From Candidatus Latescibacterota bacterium (lineage in GTDB: Bacteria; Latescibacterota; UBA2968; GCA-2709665): a DNA stretch of 64,000 bases. This document shows, in pieces, positions 25,106 through 31,102 of the stretch (its first letter is position 1; every line of letters starts with the position of its first letter). The stretch lies in NCBI GenBank assembly GCA_965116875.1, contig OZ220733.1, positions 3,936,001-4,000,000 on the forward strand. Direction: 5' to 3'. Below the pieces are notes generated by a model. It was not told the DNA's origin. It was given only the letters and a program-made list of their open reading frames with translations, and ran no database searches. The position numbers and the translations under genes are program-made.

Positions 25106-25990
25106 ATGGCCGAACTCGTATATCGTCCGGCTGCCGACGCGTATCATTTCGAAACGGAGGCGATGACCGGCGAAATCCGCGCGTCGGGAAACTATCACGG
25201 GGTGTGGACGCTTACGGACAAAGTCACCGGCAGGCAGGTGGTCCACCCGCAATTTTCGGCATTGAACCTGTTCCGGCTGTTCGCGGTGCACCAGGGTCTG
25301 GATCAACCCCGTCTGATGGACCGGACCGTCGACGTCCGGGACAACGTTATCGAAATACACTGGTCCGCCACTGAAACCCATCAGGGCGCGTTGACGGCCC
25401 GCTACGAGGTGGTCGAGCCGAATTGCATCGACCTGGCGGTGACGGTAGCGTGCGAGGGGACGTATGCGGGATATGAGCTCTTCCTGTCCAACTATTTCGA
25501 CAAGACGCTGCGGCCCCACGTCTATCTGCACGGAAGCCGTTACGGCCGGGCAAGCGAGGCTCCCGAACGGGTTGTGCCGATGGTGAATGACGTCTTTCGA
25601 GGGACCGTCATCGTGTTTCCGCGGGACCCGCACGCCGCGAGGCGCTGCGTCGACGGGCGGTGGAACCGCAGTGAGAACAATTCACCCACCGTGCAGATGT
25701 GCCCGGTCCGGTACTACGGCTATCCGTTCTCGTTCCTGACCGACGTCGGGAATCGTCTGGGCGTTGTGCTGATGTCGACGGAGGCGGACTGCTATGCGAT
25801 CAGCACGCGCTACCACGTGGACGACGAAGCCGATCGAATGACGGATTACAGCGCGTTCGATTTCTCGTTGTTCGGCGACGACCTCGTACCCGGCAGCCGT
25901 CGCACGGTCCGGATGCGGTTGGCGTTGACAGAGATCGATGAGGAAATGTCCCAGCCCCTGGCGCATTATCAGACGTTTGCGGAGGGTTGA
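25106..25990 (+). CDS. Hypothetical protein (beta-rich, possibly mutarotase-like fold)
   Basis: Strong RBS AGGAG and a co-directional 294 aa ORF. No motif recognised with confidence. Confidence 0.6.
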   Translation: MAELVYRPAADAYHFETEAMTGEIRASGNYHGVWTLTDKVTGRQVVHPQFSALNLFRLFAVHQGLDQPRLMDRTVDVRDNVIEIHWSATETHQGALTARYEVVEPNCIDLAVTVACEGTYAGYELFLSNYFDKTLRPHVYLHGSRYGRASEAPERVVPMVNDVFRGTVIVFPRDPHAARRCVDGRWNRSENNSPTVQMCPVRYYGYPFSFLTDVGNRLGVVLMSTEADCYAISTRYHVDDEADRMTDYSAFDFSLFGDDLVPGSRRTVRMRLALTEIDEEMSQPLAHYQTFAEG

Positions 25991-26076
25991 TGGCAACGGA
26001 CTGTCAGCGATGCTTTCCGTTATCCGGGACAATTTCTGGGTTGAATCGCGGCGGGCTTGTTCCTATTTTTACCAGG

Positions 26077-27270
26077 ATGAAACGACTGAATCAGGTTTGG
26101 GTCCGGCTCGCGTTTGCCGTCTTTGCGGCCGTGGTCGCGGCGGCATGTGGGAAGACACCGCCGACCGTGGACGACGATCTGTACGAAGAGTACCCCGGGT
26201 TGCCGTATGGGATCATGATCACCGTTGCCGGCACCGGAGATCCCGGCAGGAGCGCCACCGGAAACGGCCCCCTGGACACGGAATTGTATTTCCCCCAGGA
26301 CGTGGCCGTCGGCCCCGAGGGCCGGACGTACATTCTGGACTGGAACAACAATCGCGTTGTCGTGATCGACAACGGAACCGTCCGCCCCCTGATCGGCAAC
26401 GGCGAACCGGGCCAGGCGCTTACGGGTCCCGCGCTGGAAACAGGCGTCGATCATCCGGCACACATTTCGTTCGATCCGCAGGGGCGGTTGATCCTGTCGG
26501 CCTGGCAGAATTCGAGGATCCTTCGATACGACTTTTCCACGCGCCGGATCGGGACCATTGCCGGCACGGGCGATCGGGGGTTCAGCGGCGATGGCGGCCC
26601 CGCTCTGGACGCCTCGTTGAATCTGCCGAGTTCCACAGTCTTCGATCCGTCCGGTCGCATGTATATCTCCGATCAGGGCAACCTCCGCATTCGATTGGTC
26701 GATCTGAACGGCATCATCTCCACCGTTGCGGGCACCGGACGGGAGGGGTTTGCCGGGGACGGCGGTCCTGCGACCCTGGCCGACCTGTATGCGCCCACGG
26801 GTGACGCCGCACAGCCCGGCGGCCGGATTGCGATGGATAGCCGGGGCAACCTGTATATCGCCGATACGTTCAACAACCGGATACGCAAGGTGGATACCGC
26901 CGGCAGGATCGGCACGGTGGCCGGCGGGGGCAGTATCGGTGCAACCGCCGGTACGTATTCCGGGGACGGCGGTCCGGCAACCCAGGCCAGCCTTTCGCGG
27001 CCCAGCGACGTGGCCGTCGACGCGGAGGGGAATCTGTATATTGCCGATACCGGCAACCATTGTATCCGGAAGGTGGATACAGAGGGGACAATCACCACGC
27101 TTGCCGGCCGGTGCGGGGAGCCGGGATTCAAGGGCGACAGCGACCACCCGAGATGGGGAAAACTCAGGAGCCCCTATGGCGTCGCGCTCGACCGGGAAGA
27201 GAATCTGTACATCGCCGATACGTTCAACCATCGGATCCGCGTGGTGTACAAGCACATCGCCGTACGATGA
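26077..27270 (+). CDS. NHL-repeat beta-propeller lipoprotein
   Basis: Signal peptide with lipobox AAAC. Repeated GFSGDGGPA..A.L..P..VA.D..GNLYIADT.N.RIRKVD..G.I.T.AG units. RBS AGGA. Confidence 0.9.
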   Translation: MKRLNQVWVRLAFAVFAAVVAAACGKTPPTVDDDLYEEYPGLPYGIMITVAGTGDPGRSATGNGPLDTELYFPQDVAVGPEGRTYILDWNNNRVVVIDNGTVRPLIGNGEPGQALTGPALETGVDHPAHISFDPQGRLILSAWQNSRILRYDFSTRRIGTIAGTGDRGFSGDGGPALDASLNLPSSTVFDPSGRMYISDQGNLRIRLVDLNGIISTVAGTGREGFAGDGGPATLADLYAPTGDAAQPGGRIAMDSRGNLYIADTFNNRIRKVDTAGRIGTVAGGGSIGATAGTYSGDGGPATQASLSRPSDVAVDAEGNLYIADTGNHCIRKVDTEGTITTLAGRCGEPGFKGDSDHPRWGKLRSPYGVALDREENLYIADTFNHRIRVVYKHIAVR

Positions 27271-27336
27271 TCTTCCCGCCGGTGAGCGGGAGTCATGGCG
27301 ATCGGGATCTGATACCGTACCTTCAGGGGTGAGCAA

Positions 27337-27840
27337 ATGGGCGGAATGAGACGGCTTGGATTTGCAGGCATCCTGCTGGCTGCGAGTCTGTTCTGTTGTT
27401 TTCCGGATATCGCGGCCGCCGGGGATAAGGAACCCGTTCCCCTGCCACGCGTGCAGGTTGTCACGCTGGAAGGAGACACGCTGAATCTTGCCGATGTGTG
27501 CGAAGACAAGCCATCCTTCGTCTATCTTTGGGCAACCTGGTGCAAGACGTGCAAGAAGGACTTGAAGAATGTCTTCAAGTTGAGGGATAAATTCGGCGAC
27601 CGGATCCAGGTTTTCGGCATTGCGTGGAAGAACAGCGCGGAGGAGATTCAGACCTTCTTCGCGGACAGGAAGCAGACGCTGCACAGCTACATCGATTCGG
27701 ATGGCCGGGTATTCGAAGCCTTCGAGACCCGGTTGACGCCCACGGTTGTGATCGTCAATGCCCGCGGGGAGGTCCTTTTTTCGGGTTACGGCTCCTTTCG
27801 GAAGTACAGAAAGATCCTGGAAAAGGCATTGAAAGGGTAG
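27337..27840 (+). CDS. TlpA/ResA-like thioredoxin-fold disulfide reductase
   Basis: Signal peptide, YLWATWCKTC (CxxC), cis-Pro loop LTPTVVIV. Confidence 0.88.
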   Translation: MGGMRRLGFAGILLAASLFCCFPDIAAAGDKEPVPLPRVQVVTLEGDTLNLADVCEDKPSFVYLWATWCKTCKKDLKNVFKLRDKFGDRIQVFGIAWKNSAEEIQTFFADRKQTLHSYIDSDGRVFEAFETRLTPTVVIVNARGEVLFSGYGSFRKYRKILEKALKG

Positions 27841-27883
27841 CGGTCGACTGAACGAAAACCACAATGCTCGAGGAGTGTGGAAG

Positions 27884-28858
27884 ATGAAACGAGTTTTCAA
27901 GGTTCTCCCGTTGATTCTGATCAGCCACCTGTTTTACGGTTACGAACCTGCCCTGGCGCAGCCTGGCGTAAGCTGACGTCGTCCCGTACTCCCGGGCGGG
28001 AGAATGCTTCAGGGCAGTCTGATCACGAAGGACCTTTTCGTCGTGAGCGCGAACTACGAGTACGAGTACCTGGGCGATGCGATGTACGGTACCGGGCCGA
28101 TCCCCAACATCAACCAGGAAGTGACCAGCATGTCAACGGTGTCCGTATTCGCCAGTTACGGGGTCACGGAATGGTTCGGCGCCGCCGTCGTGCTTCCGTT
28201 TCGTTCCATTACCAACGACAAGATTCTGCTACCCGGTCAGTACGACAACCAGTATCAGGGCGGAAAGTACGTCCGGCACGCCGCCGGTCTGGGCGACGTC
28301 GTTCTGATGTTGAATTTTGCGCCGCCACTGCCCGACGCACTGCCCGGATTGCTCTTTTCGGCAGGTGTCAAGTTGGCCAACGGTTCGACTCACGCGGTCG
28401 ATGAGTACGGCAGCCGGTTCGCCGACCTGTTGCAGGTGGGTTCCGGAAGCATGGACCCCATTTTCTCCGTCAGTCTGTCCCGCGCGTTCGACAGCCTGTT
28501 TTTCTCCGGTATGCTCTTCACACGCATTATTTCCCGCGAGAACGTGTACGGATACAAATACGGAAATGAGTTTCAGGGCATCTTTTCCATGGATTACATG
28601 CACGGGGAGAAGATAATTGCCGGTCTCAGCCTGAACCACGTCTACACGGACCGCGATTATTTCCAATATGGAAAGATTGCCCGAAAACGTGGCGGTACGT
28701 GGCTGTATCTCGCGCCGAAGCTGGGTGTACGGGCAACGGAGAATCTGAGCCTGGAGGCCAGGCTGCCGCTTCCCGTGTATCAGAACGTGAACGAAAGCCA
28801 GCTGACCTCCGACTACCAGCTCCACGTGGGCGCCACCTATCACTTTTTCGCCCGTTAG
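27884..28858 (+). CDS. Outer-membrane beta-barrel ('transporter'/MetA-pathway-like) protein with an in-frame TGA at 27974-27976 (candidate selenocysteine)
   Basis: ATG 27884 after GAGGAG begins MKRVFKVLPLILISHLFYGYEPALA-QPGVS*RRPVLPGGR, in the same frame as ORF 28004..28858. The body has GLGDVVL, LQVGSGSMD, YKYGNE, GGTWLYLAP, LPLPVYQNVNESQL and C-terminal YHFF-type beta strands. Confidence 0.75.
27977..28019 (+). promoter_or_regulatory. Candidate bacterial SECIS element
   Basis: Upper stem CTCCC/GGGAG (27989-27993/27998-28002) closes a GGGC loop that starts 17 nt after the TGA. It is extended by GTA/TGC and CCC/GGG pairs. Confidence 0.5.
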
Positions 28859-28942
28859 CAGTCCGTTGATAAAGTCGCTCTGCAGGCCTGCGAGTGAAGT
28901 CTTCGCAGGCAGGCAGCCCGGATGGACTTTTTCAACGGGCTG
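28859..28942. mobile_element. MITE family A, short (84 bp) copy
   Basis: Imperfect TIRs CAGTCCGTTGATAAAGTC / GACTTTTTCAACGGGCTG, flanked by a TTAG direct repeat (28855-28858, 28943-28946). Internal hairpin GCCTGCGA..TCGCAGGC. Confidence 0.85.
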
Positions 28943-28971
28943 TTAGCGGCTGTACAGCGTGGAAACGTCAC

Positions 28972-29718
28972 ATGCGGGAGGCCGGGTTGGCGCCGAATGA
29001 AACCGAAAAGATGTGGGCCGAACTGGCGCCGTACTATGACGTATTGTATCAGTGGAAGGACTATCGGACCGAGTCGGAGCGGGTTCATCAATTGATCCAG
29101 GCGCATCGAATGACGTCCGGCAATGCCCTGCTGGACGTCGCGTGCGGGACCGGGGGGCATGCCCGGTTTCTGCGGGACCACTACGATGTAACCGGTGTCG
29201 ATCTGAATCGCGAAATGTTGAAGGAGGCCCGCAGAAAAATACCCGGTGTCAGATTTCTGTCCCGGGACATGACGTCCTTCGATCTCAATCGTCGCTTTGA
29301 CGCGGTCATCTGTCTGTTCAGTTCAATTGCCTACGTAAGGACGTACCGGAACCTGAAACGGACGATCGCCTGTTTTGCGAGACATCTGAAACCCGGCGGC
29401 ATTCTGATTATCGAGCCTTTTTTCACGAAAGAGACGTTCGTTGCAGGATCGATCCACGGAGGCACGCTTGAAGCCGAAGGTGTAAAGATCTCCAGACACA
29501 ACGTGAGTCGACGCCGCGGAAACCTGGCCGTCCTCGATTTTCATTTTCTCCTTTCAACGAAGAAAGGCACACGGTACTTTCGCGACACCCACGAGATGGC
29601 CCTGTTCGACAGGGAGAGATTTCTCGAGATTATGGCGCTTGCAGGTCTGGCGCCGAGGTACGACGAAAGCGGTCTGATGCCGGGTCGGGGACTCTACGTC
29701 ACGCAGAAGGCCGTTTGA
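28972..29718 (+). CDS. Class I SAM-dependent methyltransferase (TylM1/DesVI-like N-methyltransferase family)
   Basis: YYDVLY.WKDY, LLDVACGTG, GVDLN, FDAVICLFSSIAY, HLKPGGILIIEP, GRGLYV. Start uncertain (28972 or 29011). Confidence 0.85.
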   Translation: MREAGLAPNETEKMWAELAPYYDVLYQWKDYRTESERVHQLIQAHRMTSGNALLDVACGTGGHARFLRDHYDVTGVDLNREMLKEARRKIPGVRFLSRDMTSFDLNRRFDAVICLFSSIAYVRTYRNLKRTIACFARHLKPGGILIIEPFFTKETFVAGSIHGGTLEAEGVKISRHNVSRRRGNLAVLDFHFLLSTKKGTRYFRDTHEMALFDRERFLEIMALAGLAPRYDESGLMPGRGLYVTQKAV

Positions 29719-29737: not shown

Positions 29738-31102
29738 ATGGAACCACGTTCGGACAATGGCAATGCGGGGACCGATCGGAATCCGCAGGTTCTGGGCAAG
29801 AATTTCATGTTTCCGCCTCACGTGATCGACGATATACACATCAAGGCGAATCTGGGCCGGTACCGCATGCGCGGTATGGCGCTTTTCAAGAAGATCCCAT
29901 CGTGGGACGACCTGACGTTTCTGCCGGGCACGCTTACCCGGTTCGTTATCGAGGGATACCGTGAAAAATGCGAAACGAGGACGGTGCTCGGGCCCATGGC
30001 GGAACGGCCCCTGGCGCTGGATATTCCCATATACATAACGGGAATGAGCTTTGGGGCGTTGTCCTACGAGGCGAAGGTGGCTCTGGCCAGAGGGGCCACG
30101 ATGGCGGGCACGGCGACCTGTTCAGGAGAGGGTGGAATGCTGCCCGACGAGCGGCGGTATTCGGAGAAGTGGCTGTACCAGTGCATTCAGTCCCGTTACG
30201 GATTCAATCCGCACCACATGCGACTGGCCGACGGTGTCGAGTTCTTCATCGGTCAGGGATGCAAGGTGGGCCTCGGCGGGCACCTGATGGGCCAGAAGGT
30301 GACCGACCAGGTTGCCGAAATGCGTTCATTGCCGGCGGGGATCGATCAGCGTTCGCCGGCCAGGCACCCGGACTGGCTGGGCCCCGACGATCTGGCCCTG
30401 AAGATCGAGGAGATCCGCGAAGCGACCAACTGGCAGATACCCATCCAGTTGAAGCTCGGCGCGGCGCGGGTCTATGACGATGTGAGGATGGCGGCCAAGA
30501 CCGGCCCCGACAGCATCTATATGGACGGGATGGAAGGCTCGACGGGGGCGGGACCCCACCTGGCCACCGAGGAGACGGGCGTGCCGGGGATCGCGGCCAT
30601 CAGGCAGGCCAGAAAGGCGCTGGACGACGTGGGAAAGACCGGGGAGATTACGCTGGTCTATGCGGGAGGGATACGCAACGGGGCCGACGTTGCCAAAGCG
30701 CTCGCGCTTGGCGCCGACGCGGTAGCCATCGGCACCGCGGCGATGGTGGCGCTCAACTGCAACAAGGATATCCCGGAGGCCGATTACGAGGGAACGGTCG
30801 GCGTTCCCGCGGGTACCTGCTACCATTGCCATACCGGGCTGTGTCCCGTGGGCGTGGCCACCCAGGATCCTGTGCTTCGCAGCCGACTGGACCCGGATGA
30901 GGCGGCCGAACGGGTATACAATTTCCTTCATACCCTTGCCATCGAGTGCCAGATGTTCGCCAGGGCCTGCGGCAAAACCGACGTCCACTCCCTGGAGCCG
31001 GAGGACCTTGCCGCGCTGACCATGGAAGCGTCCGCCATGGCGGAGGTTCCGCTTGCGGGCACCCGCCATACCGTGGGCCATCCGGAGATGAACAGGTTCT
31101 GA
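29738..31102 (+). CDS. FMN-binding glutamate synthase family protein, GlxD/MgsC-like (N-methylglutamate synthase subunit C)
   Basis: TRFVIEGYREKC, GMSFGALS, SGEGGM, SRYGFNP, GQGCKVGLGGHLMGQKV, DQRSPARHPDW, GGIRNGADVAKALALGADA, CYHCHTGLCPVGVATQD [3Fe-4S] motif. RBS AGGAG. Confidence 0.88.
   Translation: MEPRSDNGNAGTDRNPQVLGKNFMFPPHVIDDIHIKANLGRYRMRGMALFKKIPSWDDLTFLPGTLTRFVIEGYREKCETRTVLGPMAERPLALDIPIYITGMSFGALSYEAKVALARGATMAGTATCSGEGGMLPDERRYSEKWLYQCIQSRYGFNPHHMRLADGVEFFIGQGCKVGLGGHLMGQKVTDQVAEMRSLPAGIDQRSPARHPDWLGPDDLALKIEEIREATNWQIPIQLKLGAARVYDDVRMAAKTGPDSIYMDGMEGSTGAGPHLATEETGVPGIAAIRQARKALDDVGKTGEITLVYAGGIRNGADVAKALALGADAVAIGTAAMVALNCNKDIPEADYEGTVGVPAGTCYHCHTGLCPVGVATQDPVLRSRLDPDEAAERVYNFLHTLAIECQMFARACGKTDVHSLEPEDLAALTMEASAMAEVPLAGTRHTVGHPEMNRF

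What the first reader, a model, noticed from the sequence alone, without database searches (positions are those of the whole stretch)
27884..28858. Candidate new selenoprotein: outer-membrane beta-barrel with an in-frame UGA just after the signal peptide and a SECIS-like hairpin
Seen: ORF 28004..28858 has no signal peptide although it looks like an outer-membrane barrel. In the same frame, ATG 27884 (preceded by GAGGAG) encodes a convincing signal peptide (MKRVFKVLPLILISHLFYGYEPALA) and then QPGVS-TGA(27974)-RRPVLPGGR, which runs straight into the barrel. A G-rich apical loop (GGGC) closed by CTCCC/GGGAG begins 17 nt after the TGA. Established: bacterial SECIS elements lie just 3' of the UGA with a G-containing apical loop roughly 16-37 nt away, and a Sec-containing porin-like protein (ExtI) is described in Geobacter. 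Inference: this is a Sec-containing barrel with the Sec at about position +6 of the mature protein, perhaps a metal- or redox-binding plug. Standard gene callers would truncate it.
Basis: partly seen in the sequence, partly recalled or inferred. Interest (0 to 1): 0.85.

Follow-up and report, generated by a model that had tools for sequence, protein, structure and literature searches.

The report
Selenocysteine-bearing outer-membrane barrel protein
This gene very probably encodes an outer-membrane channel protein with one selenocysteine near its start, a family that gene callers cut short at the UGA and that I did not find described as a selenoprotein.

Summary
ATG 27884 opens a signal peptide, TGA 27974 is codon 31, and the frame runs on to the stop at 28858 (324 codons).

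The TGA is not an accident. All 90 related loci whose N-terminus I could read, from several phylum labels and down to 36% identity, carry S/N-U-R-R-P in frame after a signal peptide.

A 5-bp hairpin with a 4-nt loop starts 17 nt after the TGA. The loop sits at the same offset as the SECIS loop of this genome's own selD. Its one freely variable pair covaries (C-G, U-A, A-U, G-C, G.U; 58 of 58 paired). The genome has selA, selB, tRNA-Sec and selD.

A periplasmic CxxC redoxin gene is a frequent neighbour. Barrel-thioredoxin fusions also exist.

I read it as a new selenoprotein family whose plug selenol cycles with that redoxin. The substrate is unknown.

The parts
27869..27874 (+). Shine-Dalgarno-like GAGGAG, 9 nt before the ATG
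   Evidence: Read directly from the sequence.
27884..28858 (+). Full coding sequence of the selenoprotein: 324 codons including UGA 31, plus the stop codon
   Evidence: Translation with TGA=U. The same architecture is found in 36 unique read-through proteins from related loci.
27884..27958 (+). Signal peptide (M1-A25). The predicted cleavage is ALA|Q, inferred from the sequence pattern because no predictor was run.
   Evidence: All related loci keep a K/R-rich start, a hydrophobic core and A-x-A before Q-[PG]-G.
27974..27976 (+). UGA read as selenocysteine (residue 31, about +6 of the mature protein)
   Evidence: TGA is at the same aligned codon in 90 of 90 loci that cover the site. It aligns with Cys in distant relatives. 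Assembled contigs of three studies, not raw reads, show no difference here. The two full-length contigs, or one of them, may come from the sample the window was assembled from.
27989..28002 (+). SECIS core hairpin: arms 27989-27993 and 27998-28002, loop GGGC at 27994-27997
   Evidence: RNAalifold predicts it on its own. On 58 unique sequences 99.0% of cells are paired. The pair at columns 30-39 shows CG 35, UA 14, AU 4, UG 4, GC 1. The pair state changes at least 13 times on the tree and is never unpaired. The loop offset equals that of the selD SECIS of the same genome.
28004..28858 (+). The truncated ORF (284 aa) that a table-11 gene caller reports. It is part of the real gene.
   Evidence: Of 36 close database hits, 34 have 236-289 residues and cover at most 89% of the query. 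The four of these that I read start after the TGA.
27337..27840 (+). Periplasmic TlpA/ResA-like thiol:disulfide oxidoreductase (W-A-T-W-C-K-T-C), 43 nt upstream on the same strand. It is the proposed redox partner.
   Evidence: Pfam AhpC-TSA scores 48.5 bits against a cut-off of 26, and Redoxin 45.9 against 26.6. WxxWCxxC and the T-P-T cis-Pro site are conserved in alignment A8. A homolog lies directly upstream in 31 of 59 distinct Sec genes with enough flank. It lies directly downstream of the Cys-type barrels in L116 and L118; L120 has a hit whose ORF limits as drawn overlap the barrel, so its position is unclear.
25987..27270 (+). NHL-repeat beta-propeller protein, first gene of the apparent NHL-redoxin-barrel run. 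The start codon is uncertain.
   Evidence: Pfam NHL 2.3e-30. It is syntenic in the genus and in L035/L061. A different beta-propeller lipoprotein follows the barrel in the paralog and in other phyla.

Best explanation
**What is shown by comparison**
- Window 27884-28858 is one gene for an outer-membrane selenoprotein.
- Translation starts at ATG 27884. Codon 31 (UGA 27974) is decoded as selenocysteine by SelB and tRNA-Sec. The signal is a small SECIS hairpin, CUCCC-GGGC-GGGAG at 27989-28002, whose loop begins 17 nt after the UGA.
- The frame then continues into a 12-stranded beta-barrel of the COG4313/Phenol_MetA_deg kind.

**What is inferred**
- After signal-peptide cleavage (ALA|Q) the mature protein starts Q-P-G-V-S-U-R-R-P.
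- The single Sec is the only Cys/Sec in the mature chain. It sits at about +6, just before the N-terminal segment that occludes the lumen from the periplasmic side in the solved relative Pput2725.
- Proposed mechanism: the selenol is a reactive site on the plug. It reacts with a thiophilic or oxidising species in or under the channel. A co-encoded periplasmic CxxC redoxin (27337-27840) returns it to the selenol through a selenenyl-sulfide intermediate.
- The physiological substrate is not known.

**My odds**
- Sec is inserted here: about 0.93.
- The product is an outer-membrane barrel: about 0.9.
- There is functional coupling to the redoxin: about 0.6.
- The confidence given for this entry is for the statement as a whole.
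For: **1. Conservation of the UGA**
- All 14 same-genus genomes searched, and the window's own genome, hold two paralogs, each with exactly one in-frame TGA. So do two genomes of a second genus.
- A scan of species-representative genomes used a C-terminal peptide pattern, so it was blind to the N-terminus. It gave 30 of 30 loci with S-U-R-R-P after a signal peptide. The record labels were Latescibacterota, Gemmatimonadota, KSB1, Calditrichaceae, Fidelibacterota and Neomarinimicrobiota.
- A metagenome scan gave 34 loci with the motif out of 44. The other 10 lacked the N-terminus on the contig or were distant forms.
- In all this is 90 loci, 64 distinct genes and 58 unique 72-nt segments.

**2. 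RNA-level selection on the hairpin**
- The hairpin is paired in 99.0% of cells.
- The only pair made of two fourfold-degenerate third positions (Leu CTN with Gly GGN) shows CG 35, UA 14, AU 4, UG 4, GC 1. That is 58 of 58 paired.
- None of 500 column shuffles reaches the observed covariation score, and all slid registers score lower.
- On a tree built from the barrel body, the two columns change at least 12 and 9 times. In independent pairs the second column follows the first or stays a G.U wobble, and never goes the other way.
- The Leu codon is always CTN. The Ser/Arg codon closing the stem is AGN in 55 of 58, although nearby Leu and Ser codons use TTR and TCN.
- The second loop base, G, is invariant.

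**3. Fit to the published bacterial SECIS model** (Fig. 2 legend of PMC13188914, read)
- The loop is 4 nt, the stem 5 bp, G stands in the first two loop positions and the spacing is 17 nt.
- The selD gene of this genome has its GGUC loop at the same offset of 20 nt from the U of UGA.

**4. Sec machinery in the genome**
- selA (474.8 bits), the SelB wing domain (74.6 bits), tRNA-Sec (73.4 bits against a gathering score of 47) and selD with its own TGA are all present.

**5. Sec/Cys homology**
- A profile-profile alignment of the Sec clade with a Cys-type clade has probability 100 and E 1.1e-41. It puts Sec31 on the second Cys of S-C-G-S-A-N-C.
- Many distant full-length members carry C-C, C-S-C or CxxxxC directly after the signal peptide.

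**6. Fold**
- The AlphaFold2 model has pLDDT 75.5 and pTM 0.73.
- Passages of the Pput2725 paper state that its first ~14 residues fold into the lumen (PMC4493636).

**7. Without the upstream part the barrel has no signal peptide**.

**8. Link to a redoxin**
- A redoxin gene lies directly upstream on the same strand in 31 of 59 distinct Sec genes with at least 700 nt of flank. These span several phylum labels.
- It lies directly downstream of the Cys-type barrels in L116 and L118.
- Ten database proteins fuse a barrel of this family to a C-terminal thioredoxin-like extension. I scanned one, P0049, which hits Pfam Thioredoxin. Nine carry CxxC and P0063 carries CxxS.
- 35 of 36 unique read-through proteins have no Cys in the mature chain, so any resolving thiol must come from a partner.
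Against: **No direct evidence**
- I have no evidence of selenium incorporation or of translation.

**The hairpin is weak on its own**
- It is short. The window's 76-nt fold is no better than shuffles (z 0.58).
- The 14-nt core gives -7.0 kcal/mol. 0 of 58 cores reach the model's -7.5 threshold. 53 of 58 reach it only with 45 nt of context. In the window's own 45 nt the minimum-energy fold is a competing structure.
- Only one of the five pairs covaries. The other four are invariant and lie in conserved L-P-G-G codons, so they say nothing either way.
- The phylogeny-aware sign test is only marginal, with median p 0.06.
- Rfam gives no match in the window at gathering scores.

**Residues at the Sec column in close homologs**
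- Two close full-length homologs (P0014, P0023) have Ser there, not Cys.
- Four fragments have Trp there. I did not check their DNA.

**Alternative starts exist**
- In-frame starts lie shortly after the UGA in most genes, for example a GTG at codon 4 in 21 of 36. A truncated product cannot be excluded from sequence alone.

**Family and structure limits**
- Pfam and NCBIfam give no hit for the window protein itself at E up to 1.
- The N-terminal 19-40 of the model has low confidence. Where the Sec sits relative to the lumen is therefore unknown.

**The redoxin link is incomplete**
- The redoxin neighbour is missing in 28 of 59 genes. These include the whole paralog group, and so the second copy in this genome.
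Confidence: 0.7

Rival explanations
1. A real selenoprotein barrel, but the Sec is a ligand for a soft metal or metalloid (Cu(I), Hg, As, Se) in or under the channel rather than a redox catalyst. On this reading the redoxin only keeps the selenol reduced so that it can bind.
For: - Distant relatives carry vicinal C-C, C-S-C or CxxxxC motifs at the same place. Such motifs are typical of metal sites, a point I recall rather than tested.
Against: - No metal-handling gene lies in the conserved neighbourhoods that I annotated.
- A single Sec with no second ligand in the mature chain makes a poor chelate unless the protein oligomerises.
- The PcoB match stands far below the COG4313 match.
Confidence: 0.2
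2. The UGA is an ordinary stop. On this reading a 30-codon upstream ORF acts as a leader peptide or regulatory uORF, and the barrel is translated separately from a start after the UGA.
For: - In-frame GTG, ATG or TTG codons lie 4-11 codons after the UGA in 31 of 36 unique genes.
- Gene callers produce such ORFs.
- The hairpin could pause ribosomes.
Against: - The downstream product would be an outer-membrane barrel without a signal peptide. The upstream ORF is a canonical signal peptide, always in the same frame and always ending in A-Q-x-G-x-S right at the UGA.
- Five of 36 genes have no start within about 20 codons.
- Full-length Ser and Cys homologs are single polypeptides across this point.
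- The stop is always TGA, never TAA or TAG, in 58 of 58 unique sequences.
Confidence: 0.03
3. The UGA is read through, but not as Sec. Near-cognate Trp, Cys or Arg could be inserted, or the lineage could have reassigned UGA.
For: Four database fragments show Trp at this position.
Against: - UGA ends ordinary genes in these same loci. Four of the barrel genes themselves stop with TGA.
- The genome has a complete Sec machinery and a selD with its own in-frame UGA and a hairpin at the same offset.
- A conserved, covarying hairpin at SECIS distance is not needed for simple leakiness.
- Members of the same subclade as the Trp fragments have TGA in DNA (L076, L106-L109, L112, L114). This suggests the Trp calls come from translation under another code, which I did not check.
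Confidence: 0.03
4. A nonsense mutation, pseudogene or sequencing error.
For: None beyond the presence of an in-frame stop.
Against: - The TGA is present in 90 of 90 related loci.
- Contigs of three studies cover the site without a difference. X1 and X2 are identical over 27300-28882. The X3 contig over 27819-27988 differs at two letters (table 8); the one listed is 27867, and none is listed at the TGA.
- The barrel body evolves mainly at third codon positions, with 20, 8 and 74 variable sites at positions 1, 2 and 3.
Confidence: 0.01

Closest known systems
COG4313 / Pfam PF13557 (Phenol_MetA_deg) outer-membrane channels; solved member Pput2725 of Pseudomonas putida F1 (PDB 4rl8)
   Same: [quoted passage not shown]
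- Some relatives of the window protein pass the Pfam model.
   Different: - No member is described with Sec or with an N-terminal Cys motif. The term 'cysteine' occurs 0 times in that paper.
- The window protein itself does not hit the Pfam model.
- Sequence identity to 4rl8 is 11%.
- The N-terminal segment here is about 25 residues, against about 14 in Pput2725.
- This family has a dedicated redoxin neighbour.
FapF amyloid secretion channel (PDB 5o65)
   Different: FapF is a secretion pore with a coiled-coil N-terminal extension. It has no Sec, and identity is 13-15%.
Selenoprotein families of the outer membrane listed in the 2026 review (PMC13188914): the GSU2204 family MtrB/PioB-type barrel (NF041027) and the TonB-dependent receptor of FCYXU motif type (NF049945)
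   Same: These are beta-barrel outer-membrane proteins predicted to contain Sec (table passages).
   Different: - They belong to different barrel families.
- The window protein matches no NCBIfam model at E up to 1.
- The Sec contexts differ: CxxU or a heme motif in those families, against S-U-R-R-P at the mature N-terminus here.
ExtI of Geobacter sulfurreducens
   Same: It is a porin-like outer-membrane protein linked to selenite and tellurite reduction (PMC5877670, abstract and passages).
   Different: It is not described as a selenoprotein. The predicted Sec protein of that cluster is the cytochrome ExtKL.
Sec or Cys peroxidase and thiol-disulfide systems recycled by a CxxC thioredoxin-fold partner (GPx/Trx type, TlpA/ResA type)
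   Same: A single reactive Sec with no resolving Cys in the same chain, together with a dedicated CxxC redoxin. This is a likeness in how it may work, not in descent.
   Different: The Sec is carried on a membrane barrel, not on a thioredoxin-fold enzyme. No activity has been shown.
Hypothetical protein GOS_A (Zhang and Gladyshev 2008, PMC2398784)
   Same: A marine metagenomic selenoprotein family of unknown function with 2 Sec reads and 155 Cys homologs (table passage).
   Different: Its sequences are only in a figure and a supplement that I could not see. Identity with this family can be neither shown nor excluded.

Membership tests
Bacterial selenoprotein gene (Sec-UGA plus bSECIS) | The in-frame UGA is conserved at the same codon in homologs | tested here: met
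   90 of 90 loci that cover the site, making 58 unique segments, all with TGA.
Bacterial selenoprotein gene (Sec-UGA plus bSECIS) | Cys-containing homologs align at the Sec position | tested here: met
   hhalign puts Sec31 on a Cys of the CxxxxC clade. C-C and C-S-C motifs occur in distant members. However, the two closest full-length non-Sec forms have Ser.
Bacterial selenoprotein gene (Sec-UGA plus bSECIS) | Apical loop of 3-9 nt on an upper stem of 4-16 bp, with G in the first two loop positions (model quoted in PMC13188914) | tested here: met
   The loop is 4 nt and the stem 5 bp. Loop types are GGGC 29, AGGT 16, GGTC 7, GGGT 2 and four singletons. The second loop base G is invariant in 58 of 58.
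Bacterial selenoprotein gene (Sec-UGA plus bSECIS) | Spacing of 16-37 nt between the UGA and the apical loop | tested here: met
   17 nt. The alignment is ungapped, so the spacing is identical in all 58 sequences. The offset equals that in selD of the same genome.
Bacterial selenoprotein gene (Sec-UGA plus bSECIS) | Minimum free energy of -7.5 kcal/mol or lower | tested here: inconclusive
   The 14-nt core gives -7.0, and 0 of 58 cores reach -7.5. With 45 nt of context 53 of 58 reach it, but the window's own minimum-energy fold is a competing structure.
Bacterial selenoprotein gene (Sec-UGA plus bSECIS) | selA, selB, selC and selD are in the genome | tested here: met
   selA, selB and tRNA-Sec are clustered at C1:184347-187552. 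selD is at 1070717-1071640 and has 1 TGA.
Bacterial selenoprotein gene (Sec-UGA plus bSECIS) | Selenium is incorporated into the protein | not testable with these tools
   This needs 75Se labelling or mass spectrometry.
COG4313 / PF13557 outer-membrane channel | A match to the family's sequence model above its cut-off | tested here: not met
   The window protein hits 0 Pfam families at E up to 1. Relatives P0087 and P0072 pass at 22.9 and 23.0 bits against a cut-off of 22. Some close hits carry a precomputed PF13557 label.
COG4313 / PF13557 outer-membrane channel | A 12-stranded beta-barrel fold like Pput2725 | tested here: met
   [not shown]
COG4313 / PF13557 outer-membrane channel | The N-terminal segment folds into the barrel lumen and occludes it | tested here: inconclusive
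   Model residues 37 onward align from residue 1 of 4rl8.
TlpA/ResA-like periplasmic thiol:disulfide oxidoreductase (the neighbour at 27337-27840) | A thioredoxin fold with a CxxC active site and a cis-Pro loop, and export to the periplasm | tested here: met
   AhpC-TSA and Redoxin score above their cut-offs. W, C, C and the T-P-T site are conserved in 11 of 11 rows of A8. The N-terminal hydrophobic leader was read by eye. NCBIfam StoA, ResA and TlpA models are matched only below their cut-offs, so it is not an equivalog of any of them.

The most novel reading that the evidence does not exclude
The Sec-plug barrel, its CxxC redoxin and the beta-propeller lipoprotein may form a previously unrecognised outer-membrane machine in which passage is coupled to covalent chemistry.
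- The selenolate on the plug would capture a substrate inside the channel. Candidates are a chalcogen species, a soft metal, or an electrophilic or halogenated aromatic of the kind COG4313 channels carry.
- The periplasmic redoxin would then release the substrate and reset the selenol.
- That would make it the first outer-membrane channel with a catalytic residue. It could also be a candidate for the dedicated selenium or sulfur uptake or detoxification step that has not been identified in bacteria.
Probability: 0.15. Interest if true: 0.9.

Novelty: new member of a known kind. Interest (0 to 1): 0.68.

Why it matters
**Annotation.** The family is systematically mis-annotated. Of 36 close database entries, 34 are N-terminally truncated 'hypothetical' or 'transporter' proteins without a signal peptide. 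Their location and their key residue are therefore invisible to annotation pipelines.

**Range.** The family occurs in uncultured marine and host-associated lineages, judged by record labels such as Latescibacterota, KSB1, Fidelibacterota and Neomarinimicrobiota. This genome carries two copies.

**Biology.**
- A selenocysteine on the plug of an outer-membrane channel puts selenium chemistry in the outer membrane.
- The recurrent redoxin neighbour and the barrel-thioredoxin fusions give a concrete partner to test.
- The finding also defines a wider, undescribed subfamily of COG4313-like barrels with Cys-rich mature N-termini.

**Methods.** The clean covariation at two synonymous sites makes this a useful test case for SECIS prediction with very short stems.

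Tried and rejected
**Steps that gave no usable result**
- Single-sequence folding and Rfam at gathering scores gave nothing distinctive.
- The promoter and terminator scan of 25800-29200 found no more sites than shuffles.
- Pfam and NCBIfam on the read-through protein gave no family.
- I looked for barrel-thioredoxin fusions in 168 genomes of the window's phylum with alignment A5. Only the barrel part matched, so the DNA of the fusions could not be examined for an upstream TGA.
- The complex prediction used a Cys-type barrel (L118, residues 30-335, alignment A7) with its neighbouring redoxin (residues 24-169, alignment A8). The verdict was 'no answer', with a score of 0.00 against a mark of 0.32. 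I count it neither for nor against binding.
- The window pair itself could not be sent with its Sec, because that tool takes code-11 proteins only.
- The beta-propeller lipoprotein gave only generic Lactonase and YncE-like clusters in the protein atlas. Its likeness to the window's NHL protein is marginal (E 0.006).
- The RNA-library run X12 holds one 209-nt contig over 28025-28233 with 4 differences. That is not evidence of transcription.

**Literature**
- Four full-text searches found no description of this family as a selenoprotein.
- Nor did passages of PMC13188914, PMC2398784, PMC12013277 or bioRxiv 10.1101/2022.07.06.499078.
- Haft and Tolstoy 2025 was not held.
- Supplementary tables and datasets were closed and may list the family. 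An example is GOS_A in Dataset S2 of PMC2398784.
- I did not read the whole table of the review. I read the passages shown and ran term searches: PF13557, phenol, COG4313, channel and porin each occur 0 times, and 'membrane' occurs 2 times.

**Considered and rejected**
- The downstream methyltransferase as part of the system. Synteny holds only within the genus, and a dispersed repeat separates the genes.
- A lipoprotein signal for the barrel. The A-x-A|Q pattern fits signal peptidase I better, but this was read by eye.
Full report
**Observation**

The sequence is as described.
- GAGGAG lies at 27869-27874 and ATG at 27884.
- The first 25 codons look like a signal peptide (MKRVFKVLPLILISHLFYGYEPALA), followed by QPGVS.
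- TGA is at 27974-27976 and is followed by RRPVLPGGR. The same frame runs to the stop ending at 28858.
- Under table 11 only 28004-28858 (284 aa, starting MLQGS) is an ORF.
- The hairpin CTCCC/GGGC/GGGAG occupies 27989-28002, with 17 nt between the TGA and the loop.
- Taken alone the local fold is not special. The z-score is 0.58, and 144 of 200 shuffles fold at least as well. Rfam finds nothing in the window.

**Sec machinery**

The window lies at C1:3936001-4000000 of a 5.45-Mb genome. That genome holds the following:
- selA (474.8 bits);
- the SelB wing domain next to it (74.6 bits);
- a selD gene that itself has one in-frame TGA;
- tRNA-Sec beside selA and selB (73.4 bits against a gathering score of 47).

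In selD the TGA after T-C-G is followed by a 7-bp hairpin with a GGUC loop. That loop begins 20 nt after the U of UGA, the same offset as in the gene studied here.

**Conservation of the TGA**

- A six-frame search of 61 related genomes found two paralogs in each of 15 genomes of the genus (the window's own plus 14). The paralogs are 87-100% and 51-54% identical to the query, and each has exactly one in-frame TGA. Copies in two genomes of a second genus also have it. The second copy in this genome lies at C1:4532170-4533108 on the minus strand.
- A scan of one genome per species of bacteria and archaea was seeded by a C-terminal peptide pattern. It returned 30 loci, and 30 of 30 show a signal peptide followed by [QG]-G-[VI]-S-U-R-R-P-x-L-P. 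The record titles name Latescibacterota, Gemmatimonadota, KSB1, Calditrichaceae, Fidelibacterota and Neomarinimicrobiota. Identity falls to 36%.
- A metagenome scan returned 44 loci, and 34 have the same motif with TGA. Of the other ten, one lacks the N-terminus on its contig, one is a 31% relative without the motif, six are 24-27% relatives, and two are partial 27% matches. Of those six relatives, five show A-S/T-C-G-S-x-x-C-F-L-V-T and one (L120) lacks its N-terminus on the contig.
- Together this is 90 loci, 64 distinct genes and 58 unique 72-nt segments. The stop is TGA in all 58.
- Contigs of two studies are identical to the window over 27300-28882. One of them may be the source sample. 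A third study's contig over 27819-27988 differs at two letters (table 8); the one listed is 27867, and none is listed at the TGA.

**The hairpin is under RNA-level selection**

The 58 segments align without gaps (A4). RNAalifold predicts the hairpin without prompting.

Pair counts:
- 99.0% of cells pair.
- Four pairs are invariant or nearly so.
- The middle pair joins the third position of a Leu codon to the third position of a Gly codon. Both sites are free at the protein level. It shows CG 35, UA 14, AU 4, UG 4 and GC 1, with none unpaired.
- The covariation score is 0.207 against 0.070 in shuffles (0 of 500 reach it). All slid registers score lower.

Because sequences are related, I mapped the two columns on a tree of the barrel body, leaving the hairpin columns out:
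- The columns change at least 12 and 9 times.
- In independent pairs on supported branches, the second column follows the first in about 5 of 7 and never goes the opposite way.
- The sign test is marginal, with median p 0.06.

Codon usage agrees:
- The Leu codon in the stem is CTN in 58 of 58.
- The Ser/Arg codon that closes the stem is AGN in 55 of 58, and the amino acid switches between Ser and Arg while AG stays.
- Neighbouring Leu and Ser codons freely use TTR and TCN.
- By contrast the Arg-Arg-Pro after the Sec varies at all synonymous positions, so that motif is conserved as protein.

Fit to the consensus bacterial SECIS model, as quoted in Fig. 2 of PMC13188914:
- Loop length, stem length, G in the first two loop positions and the 16-37 nt spacing are all met.
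- The energy threshold is not met by the 14-nt core (-7.0 kcal/mol, 0 of 58). It is met by 53 of 58 with 45 nt of context.
- In the window's own 45 nt the minimum-energy fold is a competitor.

**Protein family**

- Word-indexed and exhaustive profile searches found few close relatives. There are 39 at 90% clustering, and 14 cluster representatives at E up to 1e-30. There are 1698 distant relatives.
- Of 36 close database hits, 34 have 236-289 residues and cover at most 89% of the query. The four that I read begin after the TGA.
- Two close hits are full length and carry Ser at the Sec column: P0014 (…MSSRRPALLGG) and P0023 (…MGSRHPVLPGG).
- I realigned 159 hit segments to the profile in a script. 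86 do not reach the N-terminus. Among the rest, many distant full-length members read A-Q-x-C-C-[ST]-G-G-x-P, C-S-C or S-C-G-S-x-x-C directly after the signal peptide.
- Four short fragments read V-S-W-R-R-P. Members of the same subclade have TGA in their DNA, so I take the W as a gene call under another code. I did not check this.
- A profile-profile alignment of the Sec clade with the CxxxxC clade has probability 100 and E 1.1e-41. It puts Sec31 on the second Cys.
- 35 of 36 unique read-through proteins have no Cys in the mature chain.

**Fold**

- AlphaFold2 on a 25-row alignment gave pLDDT 75.5 and pTM 0.73, with low confidence for residues 19-40.
- In the Pput2725 paper (abstract and passages) the first ~14 residues fold into the lumen from the periplasmic side and nearly close a 12-stranded barrel.
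- Here about 25 residues precede strand 1, and the Sec lies six residues before the part that aligns with that plug. Whether it lies in the lumen or at the periplasmic mouth cannot be said from this model.
- Pfam and NCBIfam do not recognise the window protein. Some relatives just pass PF13557.

**Neighbours**

- 43 nt upstream on the same strand lies a 167-aa exported thioredoxin-fold protein with W-A-T-W-C-K-T-C (AhpC-TSA 48.5 bits, Redoxin 45.9 bits). It resembles ResA, StoA and TlpA below their NCBIfam cut-offs.
- Homologs with an invariant WxxWCxxC and the T-P-T loop (A8) lie directly upstream in 31 of 59 distinct Sec genes that have at least 700 nt of flank. These are the genus's first paralog, the second genus, KSB1, Calditrichaceae, Fidelibacterota and several marine groups.
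- Homologs lie directly downstream of the Cys-type barrels in L116 and L118. L120 also has a hit, but its ORF limits as drawn overlap the barrel, so its position is unclear.
- Ten database proteins of 357-417 aa fuse a barrel of this family to a C-terminal thioredoxin-like extension. I scanned one, P0049, which hits Pfam Thioredoxin. Nine carry CxxC and P0063 carries CxxS. All ten lack an N-terminal signal peptide in the database, which hints at the same truncation. I could not fetch their DNA.
- The redoxin is missing next to 28 of 59 genes, including the whole second-paralog group.
- In those loci, and in most others outside the genus, a ~350-aa beta-propeller lipoprotein follows the barrel within a few bases. 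It has an invariant lipobox Cys and a C-terminal F-E-P-Y-N…D-L-Q-R-I.
- In the window an NHL-repeat propeller (25987-27270) precedes the redoxin instead. The two propellers are barely alike.

**Interpretation**

I commit to a genuine selenoprotein, for three reasons. The UGA is fixed over deep divergence. A SECIS-like hairpin is kept by compensatory synonymous changes at the offset this genome uses in selD. Cys stands at the same column in distant relatives.

The location in the outer membrane rests on the signal peptide and the barrel fold.

The mechanism is inferred as follows:
- A lone selenol sits on the flexible N-terminal plug of a channel.
- The same chain has no resolving thiol.
- A dedicated periplasmic CxxC reductase is encoded beside it, or fused to it in relatives.
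- Together these point to a cycle between selenol and selenenyl-sulfide (or selenenic acid) reset by the redoxin.

I cannot tell which job that chemistry does. It could detoxify oxidants at the envelope, gate the channel, or capture a thiophilic substrate.

The metal-ligand reading is the main rival. The 'separate ORFs', 'non-Sec read-through' and 'error' readings are very unlikely.

**Novelty**

- The 2026 review of prokaryotic selenoproteins lists two outer-membrane barrel families, a GSU2204 MtrB/PioB type and a TonB-dependent receptor type. It holds no mention of PF13557, phenol, COG4313, channel or porin.
- No NCBIfam model matches the protein.
- Four literature searches found no description.
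- An old, uncharacterised marine family, GOS_A, cannot be excluded because its sequences are in material I could not see.
- I file the finding as a new member of a known kind: a new bacterial selenoprotein family.

Noticed in passing
window 28856-28913: A palindromic repeat of about 58 nt starts right after the barrel's stop codon. Contig depth jumps from 12.6 to about 2448 at 28855-28900, and many contigs end there. The genome holds at least 40 copies on both strands at 81-100% identity, from 126 candidates. It looks like a REP- or MITE-like intergenic element. It makes the GTG 28894 start of the downstream methyltransferase ORF doubtful.
   Followed up: partly
database proteins P0049, P0050, P0053, P0056, P0060, P0063, P0149, P0156, P0170, P0185: These 357-417 aa proteins are a sister subfamily that fuses the barrel to a C-terminal thioredoxin-like extension. 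I scanned only P0049, which hits Pfam Thioredoxin. Nine carry CxxC and P0063 carries CxxS. All lack a signal peptide in the database, so they may also be selenoproteins cut at an upstream TGA. They were not found in 168 genomes of the window's phylum.
   Followed up: partly
L066:3480-4556, L064:3524-4582, L074:3441-4496, L076:3439-4671 and others (alignment A6): A conserved beta-propeller lipoprotein of about 350 aa lies directly downstream of the Sec barrel in the paralog group and in other phyla. It has an invariant lipobox Cys, an L-Y-L-A-D-Y-G-N-N repeat and a C-terminal F-E-P-Y-N..D-L-Q-R-I. It gives only weak Lactonase, SGL and NHL hits.
   Followed up: partly
G000:C1:4532170-4533108 (minus strand, outside the window): A second copy of the Sec barrel in the same genome is 52% identical and has one in-frame TGA. 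In relatives this paralog has no redoxin neighbour and is followed by the beta-propeller lipoprotein.
   Followed up: partly
L116-L121 (metagenome loci) and L038: Distant barrels at 24-27% identity have a mature N-terminus of A-S/T-C-G-S-x-x-C-F-L-V-T. In L116 and L118 a W-A-T-W-C-P-x-C redoxin gene lies directly downstream. L120 also has a redoxin hit, but its position is unclear because the ORF as drawn overlaps the barrel. This is an undescribed Cys-type subfamily of COG4313-like barrels.
   Followed up: partly
L008 (G000:C1:1069217-1073140), position 1528: The selD gene of this genome is itself a selenoprotein (T-C-G-U). It has a 7-bp SECIS stem and a GGUC loop. A further TGA lies upstream in the same open frame at L008 1339, probably before the true start.
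   Followed up: no
window 29738-31102: A glutamate-synthase-like FMN protein (Pfam Glu_synthase 1.2e-90) is 96-99% identical across the genus. That is far more conserved than its neighbours.
   Followed up: no
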